Positions 9,684 through 11,371 of a stretch of DNA of 64,000 nt are shown piece by piece (within the stretch, counting starts at the first letter, position 1; the number at the start of each line of letters is the position of its first letter). The position numbers were made by a program, and so were the translations under genes. The notes beneath the pieces were generated by a model. It saw nothing but the letters and a program-made list of their open reading frames with translations, had not been told where the DNA came from and searched no databases. The DNA is from Phage NC-G. Where the stretch lies: sequence record MK310184; one strand, 5' to 3'.

Positions 9684-10016
9684 TTATTTCACAACATTCC
9701 AATTTTTCATATCAAGTTTACCAACTTTTTTCATCTGAGCAATCAGACGTTCAGCACGTGTACGGGCATTAACGTAATAGAATTCACCAATTTTGTTTTC
9801 TTCGATACGACCAGTAATTACAGTTTTCAGTTCATAAATCCAACCTGTAAAGAAGTTGTGAAGCTCGATGGTAAATGTGAAATCAGTACCCATACCTTCA
9901 GTTGTTTCAACTTCGATGATATCACCTTCAACTGCAGTCAGGACCCACATGGTTTCTTGATATTCACCGTTGAAACATTTAGCTTTAACAGATGCATTCA
10001 GGTTTACAGTTTTCAT
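9684..10016 (-). CDS. Hypothetical protein (110 aa)
   Basis: ORF with the same leader cassette as the neighbouring gene. Confidence 0.55.
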   Translation of the reverse strand: MKTVNLNASVKAKCFNGEYQETMWVLTAVEGDIIEVETTEGMGTDFTFTIELHNFFTGWIYELKTVITGRIEENKIGEFYYVNARTRAERLIAQMKKVGKLDMKNWNVVK

Positions 10017-10076: not shown

Positions 10077-10114
10077 AGATGTATACCCTTTTTTAAAGAT
10101 TTAGAAACAAAAAT

Positions 10115-10132
10115 GGGACTCCGAAGAGTCCC
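10115..10132 (-). terminator. Rho-independent terminator, C(UUCG)G hairpin
   Basis: Minus strand gggactc-uucg-gagtccc followed by ATTTTTGTTT. Confidence 0.7.
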
Positions 10133-10137
10133 ATAAC

Positions 10138-10299
10138 TTATGCAATAACTTTACCGAAGCAAGCAGCATCTGCACGCAATACTGCACGAGCACGAGCTTG
10201 AAGCTTATCAACTACCTGATTGATACGCTTGTTAGACGCACGCTTGTAACCAGCGCGTTTAGAGGTTCCGTCAACTACTTTAACTTCTTTCTTAGCCAT
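10138..10299 (-). CDS. Small basic protein (53 aa), absent from the ORF track
   Basis: Hand translation gives MAKKEVKVVDGTSKRAGYKRASNKRINQVVDKLQARARAVLRADAACFGKVIA; strong terminator directly downstream. Confidence 0.5.
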   Translation of the reverse strand: MAKKEVKVVDGTSKRAGYKRASNKRINQVVDKLQARARAVLRADAACFGKVIA

Positions 10300-10652
10300 T
10301 TTTAAATCTCTTAAATTAGGATGCAGGACTTATTGGCGTTGCCTGCGCAAGCCCTCAAGGGGAACATAGGTTTCGGATATTTAACGACAGGATAACCATA
10401 AACCTCGTCATCATAGCTCTTATCTGTTGCACACCGTTAGCTTAAAGGTTCCGGGTTCGATTTCTCGAGGATAAGATATATACTGATGGATATATAGGCC
10501 TTGAGGCGTACTCCCGATTGGCCATCACCTCGGGGTAGCATGCACTTGCCGCTATAAAATAACATTCAAGAGGTACACCGTAAAACTGTCGGGGTCTTAA
10601 AACTATAATGATTCGCAAATCATTAATCAGACAGTTCGACGGCTCCTCGATT
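10300..10652. other. ORF-free island of about 350 bp between rIII and the small basic protein gene
   Basis: No ORF above about 35 codons on either strand; long-range complement between 10351-10360 and 10499-10508; GGTTCGATT T-loop-like motif that does not fold into a tRNA. Confidence 0.5.
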
Positions 10653-10901
10653 TTACTTCAGGGTAATAATAAAATGACGTACTGCTTTACGAGCTGCTGA
10701 AGCCAAAGGCTTAGCATATTTCAGTTCATCTTTTGCTTCCAGTTCAGCAGCCAGAGTAGCCTGAGCAGGATTCAGATGTTTGAAATAACGCAGGATTTCC
10801 AGTGCTTCGGCTTCAACATCAATAGATGCGCCATAGTTTTCGTGACCGTTGTTCCAAGCGTTGCGTTGCAGTTCAAGAGCGTGATTCAGATGTTTGTTCA
10901 T
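10653..10901 (-). CDS. rIII: rIII lysis-inhibition accessory protein
   Basis: Internal start MNKHLNHALELQRNAWNNGHENYGASIDVEAEALEIL... (82 aa) fits my recollection of T4 rIII; position between 31 and the 30.x genes. Confidence 0.75.
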   Translation of the reverse strand: MNKHLNHALELQRNAWNNGHENYGASIDVEAEALEILRYFKHLNPAQATLAAELEAKDELKYAKPLASAARKAVRHFIITLK

Positions 10902-11047
10902 TTTAAATTCTCGATTCGAGATAAAGATTGGTGGACACGTTCTTCTGAATTTCACTTCCTTTCGGCAAGTCTCTCAGTTGTAGTCCACCGCTTAGAATTG
11001 TTCGGTTAACTTATTATTCCGACACCCAATTCATATTATTATTTATA

Positions 11048-11371
11048 TCACTTATAAAGGCACGGAATAGCTTTATAGTGGCAGGTAACGAATTTCTGTT
11101 TAATTTCTTTAGGCTGTTTAATACCCAATGCAACTAAAGGATGAGGCACGTTAGCAATCTTACCAACAGGAAGTGGAGTCAAATCACCTACTTCACAAAA
11201 ACCTTCAGGGACATCAGGCCCTACAGAATAAATTTCACAAAGTTCAGGGATTTCACCTTGATGAAGTTTGCCAATAACGATACCAGATGCAGTAGTTTCT
11301 TCATCACCAGCTTGTTTTGGTTCGGAAACGAGAATAACATATTCTCCGACCGCTTTAATAGGAAGTTCCAT
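11048..11371 (-). CDS. 31: Co-chaperonin for GroEL (T4 gp31-like)
   Basis: [16 protein letters not shown]...PELC...[16 protein letters not shown]...[15 protein letters not shown] matches T4 gp31. Confidence 0.92.

What the first reader, a model, noticed from the sequence alone, without database searches (positions are those of the whole stretch)
10115..10652. 350-bp ORF-free island next to an unannotated small basic protein gene
In an otherwise gene-dense early region, 10300-10652 has no ORF above about 35 codons on either strand. It contains long-range complementary segments (10351-10360 with 10499-10508) and a T-loop-like GGTTCGATT motif that does not fold into a tRNA. Immediately downstream on the minus strand is a 53-aa highly basic protein gene (10138-10299) followed by a strong terminator. 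The island could encode a structured non-coding RNA, a degraded gene, or an unusually long regulated leader.
Basis: seen in the sequence. Interest (0 to 1): 0.55.

Follow-up and report, generated by a model that had tools for sequence, protein, structure and literature searches.

The report
New folded RNA in T4-like phages
The gap between phage genes rIII and 30.9 holds a previously undescribed 145-base RNA that folds into an elaborate, strongly conserved shape found in about 40% of T4-type phages; its function is still unknown.

Summary
The window is a JS98-like T4-type phage. The "island" is the rIII-30.9 spacer, read on the minus strand. The "unannotated" basic protein is the known gp30.9, followed by a real terminator.

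The spacer is a mosaic of small RNA structures. Its centrepiece, "core B" (10412-10556), is a closed four-way-junction RNA of about 145 nt. It has eight helices, a GNRA hairpin and a 5-bp kissing-loop pseudoknot. On an alignment not fitted to the structure, 25 of 43 pairs show compensatory changes, against 12.9±1.8 in shuffles; 94.7% of cells are paired.

Core B is 93-95% identical between genera whose flanking genes are 64-75% identical. It occurs in 407 phage records, always at this locus. T4 lacks it. The closest relatives carry a 45-nt hairpin there instead.

It matches no Rfam family, tRNA, T4 rnaC/rnaD or E. coli sequence, and has no conserved ORF.

The T-loop motif is antisense and variable. 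The long-range pairing does not covary.

Most likely it is an autonomous accessory RNA that binds a conserved partner. A cis-regulatory role for 30.9 is the main rival.

The parts
10412..10556 (-). Core B: a self-contained structured RNA domain of about 145 nt. It is a four-way junction closed by helix P1.
   Evidence: The covariance model scores 174.5 bits at 10415-10553. RNAalifold recovers the same architecture independently.
10551..10556 (-). P1 5' strand (UAUAGC). It pairs with 10412-10417 (GCUAUG).
   Evidence: The flank sequences differ in every lineage but stay complementary. The innermost variable pair is AU 11, GC 11, UA 1, GU 1.
10497..10550 (-). P0-H4 arm. P0 is GGC (10548-10550) paired with GCC (10497-10499). 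H4 is 10530-10539 paired with 10506-10517, with bulged A and C. The H4 loop carries UGAUG (10523-10527).
   Evidence: Five or six H4 pairs show changes on both sides. The extension pairs G-C and C-G become A-U in the Cronus and Karamvirus lineages. P0 shows C-G to U-A in fHe-Yen9-01 and U-G in L094.
10477..10496 (-). H3 hairpin (UAUAUA / UAUAUA). Its loop, CAUCA at 10484-10488, forms a 5-bp kissing pseudoknot with the H4 loop at 10523-10527.
   Evidence: Three H3 pairs covary. The pseudoknot pairs read CG 16 / UA 9 and GC 19 / AU 4 / UA 2, with 100% of cells paired. The pseudoknot was not part of the covariance model.
10418..10476 (-). H1 arm. H1 is 10470-10476 paired with 10418-10424 and encloses a three-way junction. 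That junction holds H2 (10457-10468, GAAA tetraloop) and H5 (10452-10456 paired with 10431-10436, with a variable loop of about 15 nt).
   Evidence: H1, H2 and H5 all covary. The H2 loop is mostly GNRA (GAAA, GUAA, GCAA), with UAAA/UAAU in a few lineages. The plus-strand GGTTCGATT at 10454-10462 is the antisense of this arm.
10563..10651 (-). Module A: an extended hairpin of about 89 nt just after the rIII stop codon. T4 has it too.
   Evidence: Alignment with T4. Compensatory changes in L034, L041 and L042.
10365..10415 (-). Module C: a probable H-type pseudoknot, present in every rIII-30.9 spacer examined. Its 5' end overlaps the 3' strand of P1.
   Evidence: The loop and its downstream partner covary between lineages. 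Support is moderate: own-partner duplexes average 5.96 bp against 4.84 bp when partners are swapped.
10348..10365 (-). Hairpin D (GUUCCCCUUGAGGGCUUG). It is universal, but its position in the spacer differs between lineages.
   Evidence: The stem is kept while the loop varies.
10300..10347 (-). Proximal 30.9 leader: a hairpin GCAGG...CCUGC (10323-10346) and the Shine-Dalgarno region AAGAGA (10307-10312).
   Evidence: Read directly from the sequence and from the fold prediction.
10138..10299 (-). Gene 30.9: a 53-aa basic protein of unknown function.
   Evidence: Annotated as 30.9 in JS98 and T4. Matches phrog_1427 at E = 6.5e-26. 135 homologues were found. AlphaFold2 gives one helix (residues 28-48) and a disordered basic N-terminus, mean pLDDT 69.7.
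10113..10134 (-). Intrinsic terminator that ends the rIII-30.9 transcription unit.
   Evidence: A 9-bp stem with 5 G-C pairs, a UUCG loop and a T-run.
10653..10901 (-). Gene rIII (82 aa, ATG start): lysis-inhibition accessory protein.
   Evidence: Matches phrog_1457 at E = 5.6e-43. Annotated as rIII in related phages.

Best explanation
Shown:
- The rIII-30.9 spacer is transcribed on the gene strand and consists of several independently folding RNA modules.
- The largest, core B (10412-10556), is a new RNA family of about 145 nt. Helix P1 brings its two ends together.
- From P1 springs a perfect four-way junction with three arms: P0-H4, H3 and H1.
- The hairpin loops of the neighbouring H4 and H3 arms are locked by a 5-bp kissing interaction.
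- The H1 arm opens into a three-way junction carrying a GNRA-capped hairpin (H2) and a large-loop hairpin (H5).
- About half of the unpaired bases are invariant, notably the stretches CGGCAAG.GCAUG, ACCCGGA and GCUAACGGUG.GCAACAGAU.

Inferred:
- Core B behaves as an optional, self-contained accessory RNA gene rather than as part of a fixed leader.
- It is made as part of the early/middle rIII-30.9 transcript. It has no promoter of its own, and the unit ends at the terminator after 30.9.
- It is probably released at its AU-rich single-stranded flanks by host RNase E, and accumulates as a stable folded RNA.
- It then acts through its shape, by binding one conserved partner in the infected enterobacterial cell: a host or phage protein, or another RNA.
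- The partner and the resulting benefit to the phage are unknown. Counter-defence or host takeover is plausible.
For: The structure is real.
- On a MAFFT alignment not fitted to the structure, 94.7% of cells pair, against 27-43% when partners are slid.
- 25 of 43 pairs change on both sides, against 12.9±1.8 in shuffles (0 of 500 reach it).
- On the model-fitted alignment, 99.6% of cells pair and 19 of 36 pairs change on both sides.
- RNAalifold recovers the same helices and adds compensated extensions.

It is RNA on the gene strand.
- There are 17 G-U cells against 2 A-C cells in the core helices.
- The H2 loop is GNRA only when read on this strand.

Selection is strong.
- Core B is 93-95% identical between the window and KP179, Merlin and Kosakonia phage 305. 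rIII and 30.9 are 64-75% identical, and rIII third codon positions 47-57%.

It is autonomous and optional.
- P1 closes the domain.
- Its neighbours differ by lineage: A-B-C-D here, C-X-B-D in Jiaodavirus and D-B-C in Karamvirus.
- At the same site T4 has nothing, and IME281/Bp7 (97% identical overall) have a 45-nt hairpin.
- It is present in 407 of about 998 phage records that carry this spacer, one copy each, always in this orientation.

It has no promoter or terminator of its own.

It is not coding.

Precedent: T4 rnaC and rnaD are stable RNAs of unknown function, annotated beside the tRNA-Arg gene. Their processing from a polycistronic transcript rests on my own knowledge.
Against: - No expression data were available, so neither a discrete 145-nt species nor its processing has been shown.
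- The element never leaves the 30.9 leader, which also fits a cis role.
- Thermodynamic stability is unremarkable: z = -1.16 for core B alone and -1.89 for the whole spacer.
- Sequence diversity is limited to about ten lineages of one phage subfamily. P0 and the covarying H5 pair each rest on a single divergent sequence.
- No partner could be inferred.
- High identity across genera could partly reflect recent horizontal exchange rather than selection alone. For example, core B is 100% identical between JS98 and several Tequatrovirus phages.
Confidence: 0.45

Rival explanations
1. Core B is a cis-acting sensor in the 30.9 leader. It would be a riboswitch-type aptamer or a protein-binding operator, possibly for gp30.9 itself. 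Its ligand-dependent folding of P1 would change translation or read-through of 30.9.
For: - It is always in the 30.9 leader, on the sense strand, with no promoter of its own.
- The architecture is typical of aptamers: a P1-closed multi-helix junction, neighbouring arms tied by kissing loops, and invariant unpaired bases.
- In this window the 3' strand of P1 overlaps the conserved 5' end of pseudoknot C.
- gp30.9 is a small basic protein with a disordered arginine/lysine-rich N-terminus.
Against: - There is no conserved expression platform. What follows P1 differs by lineage (C, D or another hairpin). Core B lies about 110-210 nt from the start codon, with stable hairpins in between. The order of B and C is inverted in Jiaodavirus and Muldoonvirus.
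- Close relatives keep 30.9 and the rest of the leader without core B.
- No Rfam riboswitch class matches, even at E <= 10.
- gp30.9 relatives in other phages have short, simple leaders.
Confidence: 0.3
2. Core B, like its neighbouring modules, is a passive RNA-stability or processing element. It would act as a compact barrier to 3' exonucleases or to RNase E scanning, setting the half-lives of the rIII and 30.9 messages.
For: - The whole spacer is a string of stable structures (A, B, C, D) separated by AU-rich linkers.
- The modules are interchangeable between lineages.
Against: A barrier needs stable helices, not roughly 30 invariant unpaired bases, a covarying kissing loop and 93-95% identity across genera. 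Simple hairpins (module F, or none) do the job at the same site in relatives.
Confidence: 0.12
3. Core B is a new self-cleaving ribozyme that cuts the rIII-30.9 transcript.
For: - The size, the pseudoknotted compact fold, the invariant junction and loop bases, and the intercistronic phage location all resemble small ribozyme classes.
Against: - It matches no known ribozyme family.
- Nothing in the sequence identifies a cleavage site, and the idea cannot be tested with the tools used here.
Confidence: 0.06
4. The region is a decayed or overlooked protein-coding gene, or a DNA-level element such as a replication origin or recombination site.
For: - 42- and 58-codon ORFs exist on the minus strand.
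- Some GenBank records annotate hypothetical proteins there.
Against: - Nearly every lineage has stops in all six frames, the indels are not multiples of three, and substitutions come in compensating pairs.
- The strand-specific excess of G-U over A-C (17 to 2) and the GNRA loops argue for RNA rather than DNA.
- None of the related phages examined shows an intact protein gene at this position.
Confidence: 0.02

Closest known systems
T4 small stable RNAs rnaC (species 1, 139 nt) and rnaD (species 2, 119 nt)
   Same: Both are phage-encoded, non-coding, structured RNAs of about 120-140 nt, of unknown function and without a promoter of their own annotated. Core B is almost exactly the size of rnaC. 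Their excision from a longer transcript rests on my own knowledge.
   Different: There is no sequence or structural similarity: the best covariance-model score in the T4 tRNA region is 3.6 bits, E = 1.4. The locus differs (tRNA cluster versus the rIII-30.9 spacer), and T4 itself lacks core B.
Purine and lysine riboswitch aptamers (P1-closed junction with kissing loops between neighbouring arms)
   Same: General architecture: a variable closing helix P1, a multi-helix junction, two adjacent hairpin arms held parallel by Watson-Crick loop-loop pairing, invariant unpaired bases, and a position in a 5' leader. This comparison rests on established knowledge of those structures.
   Different: No Rfam riboswitch model matches. 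No conserved expression platform was found. The four-way junction itself has no unpaired bases; the invariant bases lie in an internal loop and in a distal three-way junction.
Mobile regulatory cassettes of T4-type phages (promoter-early stem-loops, PeSL; Arbiol et al. 2010, recalled from memory)
   Same: Small non-coding modules that are shuffled between T4-type genomes and mark plastic sites. The rIII-30.9 spacer likewise shows alternative cassettes at one site.
   Different: PeSLs are an early promoter plus a simple stem-loop. No promoter-like site lies in this spacer. Core B is a 145-nt multi-helix fold under strong sequence constraint.
tRNA and tmRNA tRNA-like domains
   Same: A four-way junction with a closing 'acceptor-like' helix and a loop-loop tertiary contact.
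   Different: ARAGORN finds nothing. The apparent T-loop is on the antisense strand and is variable. The kissing arms are adjacent rather than opposite. There is no CCA end, and no tRNA or tmRNA Rfam match.

Membership tests
tRNA / tmRNA | A cloverleaf with a T-arm (GTTCRANYC in a 7-nt loop on a 5-bp stem) that ARAGORN or the Rfam tRNA/tmRNA models can detect. | tested here: not met
   ARAGORN finds 0 genes in the window and Rfam gives no match. GGTTCGATT lies on the antisense strand of the RNA and is not conserved.
Any curated Rfam family (riboswitches, ribozymes, sRNAs, leaders) | A covariance-model score at or above the gathering threshold, or at least E <= 10. | tested here: not met
   No match in the 64-kb window at gathering threshold. 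No match in 1.2 kb or 153 nt at E <= 10. No match in 11 related loci.
T4 rnaC / rnaD stable RNAs | Homology to the T4 species 1 and species 2 RNA genes. | tested here: not met
   The core B covariance model run without filters on the T4 tRNA/rnaC/rnaD region gives at best 3.6 bits. Comparing the sequences by eye shows no similarity.
Riboswitch (generic) | A conserved aptamer closed by a P1 helix. | tested here: met
   P1 and a junction with covariation.
Riboswitch (generic) | An adjacent expression platform (terminator or Shine-Dalgarno sequestering helix) that competes with P1 and is conserved alongside the aptamer. | tested here: not met
   The downstream neighbour differs by lineage, no terminator-like site lies within the spacer, and 110-210 nt of other hairpins precede the start codon.
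Riboswitch (generic) | Specific ligand binding that changes gene expression. | not testable with these tools
   Needs in-line probing or reporter assays.
Self-cleaving ribozyme | Site-specific self-scission. | not testable with these tools
   No known ribozyme model matches. An in vitro assay is required.
Protein-coding gene or pseudogene | A conserved reading frame, codon-patterned substitution, or an intact homologue in relatives. | tested here: not met
   Stops in all six frames in nearly every lineage, and indels of +1, -1, -3 and +9. Paired substitutions. None of the relatives examined has an intact gene here.
gp30.9 protein family (phrog_1427), for the 53-aa gene | Sequence homology and a conserved position downstream of rIII. 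| tested here: met
   phrog_1427 at E = 6.5e-26. 66-72% identity to T4 and KP179 gp30.9, with the invariant SKRAGYKR motif. Synteny holds in 9 annotated phages.
Intrinsic terminator (after 30.9) | A G+C-rich hairpin followed by a T-run. | tested here: met
   ATGGGACTCTTCGGAGTCCCAT followed by TTTTGTTTCT at 10134-10113.
PeSL-type mobile regulatory cassette | An early sigma-70 promoter followed by a stem-loop. | tested here: not met
   No promoter-like site lies between 10300 and 10652 on either strand.

The most novel reading that the evidence does not exclude
Core B is a new functional class of phage RNA: a trans-acting decoy or inhibitor that binds a conserved enterobacterial protein or defence component, or else a new aptamer or ribozyme class. 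It would be carried as an optional 'RNA accessory gene' that T4-type phages exchange like their small early protein genes.
Probability: 0.3. Interest if true: 0.85.

Novelty: new variant of a known kind. Interest (0 to 1): 0.68.

Why it matters
T4-type phages are among the best-studied viruses, yet their known non-coding RNAs are limited to tRNAs, rnaC/rnaD and introns. Core B is a 145-nt RNA with a four-way junction and a covarying kissing loop. It is more conserved than the proteins around it and is present in hundreds of therapeutic and model phages of E. coli, Klebsiella, Enterobacter, Serratia, Yersinia and Erwinia. Yet it is absent from Rfam, and I found no paper describing it.

That makes it a well-defined new RNA family whose function can be tested directly. 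Natural alleles with the RNA, without it, and with a simple hairpin in its place exist in near-isogenic phages.

If it acts in trans, it would extend the idea of phage accessory (anti-host) genes to structured RNAs. If it acts in cis, it would be a new sensor class. It also corrects database annotations that place hypothetical proteins over the RNA.

Tried and rejected
- tRNA or tmRNA: ARAGORN finds nothing, and the T-loop motif is antisense and variable.
- Known RNA families: no Rfam match at gathering threshold or at E <= 10, for the window, the 1.2-kb region, the 153-nt core or 11 related loci.
- Homology to T4 rnaC/rnaD, suggested by the identical 139-nt length: rejected.
- Mimicry of a host RNA: blastn of the core against 5,426 E. 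coli genomes gives no match at E <= 10.
- A bacterial or unrelated-phage origin: pattern scans of metagenome, genome and viral collections returned only near-identical T4-type copies or chance hits that the covariance model rejects.
- Helices I proposed by hand and then dropped: ACC/GGU, 5'-UGCAUGCU with GGUGUGCA (the Cronus U-to-A change is instead compensated within H5), GAGG/CCUC, GGCC/GGCC, and an 11-nt GAAA receptor. None has covariation support, or each conflicts with helices that do.
- A promoter for the RNA: none found.
- A coding reading: rejected.
- gp30.9 as a recognisable RNA-binding fold: the PDB profile search finds nothing, and AlphaFold2 gives a single helix. A fold search was therefore not run.
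- Literature: searches on rIII/30.9, T4-type ncRNA, gp30.9 and the literal sequence found no description. A large 2023 catalogue of candidate viral structured RNAs (PMC10690425) could not be checked, because its supplement is not held.

Full report
**What the region is**

The 1.8 kb around the finding is 97-98.6% identical to JS98-like T4-type phages (Dhakavirus). All genes here run on the minus strand:
- gp31 (11048-11371)
- rIII (10653-10901; 82 aa from the ATG; phrog_1457)
- a 353-nt spacer (10300-10652)
- a 53-aa basic protein (10138-10299)
- an intrinsic terminator (10113-10134)
- gp30.8 (9684-10016; Pfam Phage_30_8)

The small protein is not unannotated. It is gp30.9, named in JS98 and T4, belonging to phrog_1427 and with 135 homologues. 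AlphaFold2 predicts a single helix (residues 28-48) after a disordered basic N-terminus that carries the invariant SKRAGYKR motif.

**Checking the observation**

- The spacer has no conserved ORF, but it is not free of ORFs longer than 35 codons. There are 42- and 58-codon ORFs on the minus strand.
- GGTTCGATT is at 10454-10462, and no tRNA is found.
- The complementary segments exist over 8 bp.
- No Rfam family matches at any threshold.

**The spacer is conserved and modular**

About 998 phage records match the spacer. Every T4-type phage examined has a non-coding spacer between rIII and 30.9, between 120 and 416 nt long. Read as RNA on the gene strand, it is built from interchangeable modules:
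- A: an extended hairpin, shared with T4.
- B: the 139-nt core.
- C: present in every spacer examined.
- D: a short GC hairpin, nearly universal, whose position in the spacer varies.
- Lineage-specific hairpins.

The order differs by lineage. It is A-B-C-D here, C-X-B-D-E in Klebsiella Jiaodavirus, and D-B-C in Karamvirus. Between modules A and C, T4 has nothing. The window's closest relatives IME281 and Bp7 have a 45-nt hairpin there, and JS98 and this window have core B.

**Core B is under unusual constraint**

It occurs in 407 phage records, one copy each, always between rIII and 30.9 and always on the gene strand. The records span Dhaka-, Tequatro- (some members), Jiaoda-, Karam-, Moon-, Kanagawa-, Roskilde-, Kagamiyama- and Muldoonvirus.

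It is 93-95% identical between the window and KP179, Merlin and Kosakonia phage 305. Over the same comparisons the rIII and 30.9 coding sequences are 64-75% identical and rIII third codon positions 47-57%. The most divergent members are EcS1 (121 bits) and Yersinia phage fHe-Yen9-01 (99.8 bits).

Wider pattern scans of viral, metagenome and bacterial-genome collections found only near-identical copies or chance matches. There is no similarity to E. coli genomes or to T4 rnaC/rnaD.

**The fold**

Covariation seen by hand was tested formally in three ways.

1. On a covariance-model alignment of 26 distinct sequences, 99.6% of cells pair. 19 of 36 pairs change on both sides, against 6.5±1.8 in shuffles (0 of 500) and 1-4 when partners are slid.
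2. On a MAFFT alignment with 10-nt flanks, not fitted to any structure, 94.7% of cells pair, against 27-43% when slid. 25 of 43 pairs change on both sides, against 12.9±1.8 in shuffles (0 of 500).
3. RNAalifold independently recovers the architecture. It adds compensated extensions of H4 (C-G to A-U) and H5 (A-U to U-A in Cronus).

The resulting model, in window coordinates on the minus strand:

| Helix | Coordinates | Notes |
|---|---|---|
| P1 | 10551-10556 with 10412-10417 | Sequence differs in every lineage but stays complementary |
| P0 | 10548-10550 with 10497-10499 | |
| H4 | 10530-10539 with 10506-10517 | |
| H3 | 10491-10496 with 10477-10482 | |
| Kissing pseudoknot | 10523-10527 (H4 loop) with 10484-10488 (H3 loop) | 5 bp; CG 16 / UA 9 and GC 19 / AU 4 / UA 2; never unpaired |
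| H1 | 10470-10476 with 10418-10424 | |
| H2 | 10457-10468 | Loop mostly GNRA: GAAA, GUAA or GCAA |
| H5 | 10452-10456 with 10431-10436 | |

P1, P0-H4, H3 and H1 meet in a four-way junction with no unpaired bases, so the two ends of the RNA lie together.

Seventeen G-U cells against two A-C cells, and the GNRA loops, place the RNA on the gene strand. Nearly every lineage has stops in all six frames of the core, and frame-breaking indels exclude coding. Single-sequence folding energy is unremarkable (z = -1.16), so the evidence for the fold is evolutionary, not thermodynamic.

The T-loop-like motif is the antisense of H2's 3' strand plus the start of H5, and it varies between lineages. The 10351/10499 complementarity joins core B's internal loop to hairpin D. 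Both segments are near-palindromes of the form CCUYRAGG. The pairing drops to 4-6 bp in most other lineage combinations compared, with no compensation, whereas D's own stem is kept.

**How it probably works**

The following is shown:
- There is no promoter-like or terminator-like site inside the spacer.
- The transcription unit ends after 30.9.
- So core B is made as part of the rIII-30.9 transcript.

The rest is inferred.
- Core B is closed by its own helix and flanked by AU-rich single-stranded linkers.
- It is moved relative to its neighbours and is optional among near-identical phages.
- Yet it is nearly invariant even in unpaired positions.
- I therefore consider it most likely (about 0.45) an autonomous accessory RNA that is released and acts through its folded shape on a conserved partner in enterobacterial cells.

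The rivals are:
- A cis-acting aptamer or operator for 30.9 (about 0.3). The constant locus and the aptamer-like architecture favour it. The lack of any conserved expression platform, and the loss of core B in relatives that keep 30.9, count against it.
- A passive stability element (about 0.12).
- A new self-cleaving ribozyme (about 0.06).
- A degraded gene or a DNA-level element (about 0.02).

None of these can be settled without expression data or experiments.

**Novelty**

No Rfam family, no similar sequence outside this phage group and no paper found in the searchable library describe core B. I could not check whether it is among the unnamed candidates in large automated catalogues. I rate it as a new RNA family of a known general kind (structured phage RNA), with unknown function.

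Noticed in passing
window 10365-10415 (minus strand); the same module in L001 (T4), L002, L004-L008 and L029-L075: Module C is present in every rIII-30.9 spacer examined, including T4. It looks like an H-type pseudoknot: a hairpin whose loop pairs with a stretch about 15 nt downstream. The two partners covary between lineages, for example UUGUUGGUU/AACCAACGG, UUGGUAGU/ACUACUAA, UUGUGAG/CUCACAA and GAUGG/CCAUC. It may be the truly universal regulatory element of the 30.9 leader.
   Followed up: partly
window 10563-10651 (minus strand): Module A is an extended hairpin of about 89 nt directly after the rIII stop codon, shared with T4. It shows compensatory changes in several lineages and a truncated 45-nt version in L055.
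   Followed up: partly
L030-L032, L034, L036, L038, L041, L043 (spacer between modules A and C): A hairpin cassette of about 45 nt (CUAUCACGCGUCAGAAAAAGGUUAUCUGUCUAAGUCGUGG) sits exactly where core B sits in the window, including in the 97%-identical phages IME281 and Bp7. T4 has neither. So there are three alleles at one site.
   Followed up: partly
window 10348-10365 (minus strand); directly after the rIII stop codon in L005, L006, L048, L050 and L074: Hairpin D (GUNCCC-loop-GGGCUUG) is in nearly every spacer but changes position. Its stem is conserved and its loop varies. It is not followed by a U-run, so it is not a typical terminator.
   Followed up: partly
L101-L106 (metagenomic phage contigs): Distant gp30.9 relatives share the invariant SKRAGYKR motif. 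They occur outside T4-type genomes as single-gene units with their own sigma-70-like promoter and terminator, and without core B. The protein family is therefore wider than, and independent of, the RNA.
   Followed up: partly
window 10653-10955 (minus strand): The mechanical ORF for rIII starts at a GTG and gives 100 aa. Alignment with T4 and eight other phages shows that the real start is the ATG at 10901, giving 82 aa.
   Followed up: yes
GenBank and UniRef records matched: Several phage records annotate 'hypothetical protein' ORFs across core B. Some gp30.9 homologues, or the region itself, carry the name '1,4-alpha-glucan branching enzyme, GH-13'. These look like annotation errors.
   Followed up: no
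L003, L004, L019, L067 (Moonvirus, Roskildevirus and Kanagawavirus-type spacers): In these lineages the 5' strand of P1 begins only 3-8 nt after the rIII stop codon. A ribosome terminating on rIII would therefore unfold P1. That is a possible link between rIII translation and core B folding, but it is not general.
   Followed up: no
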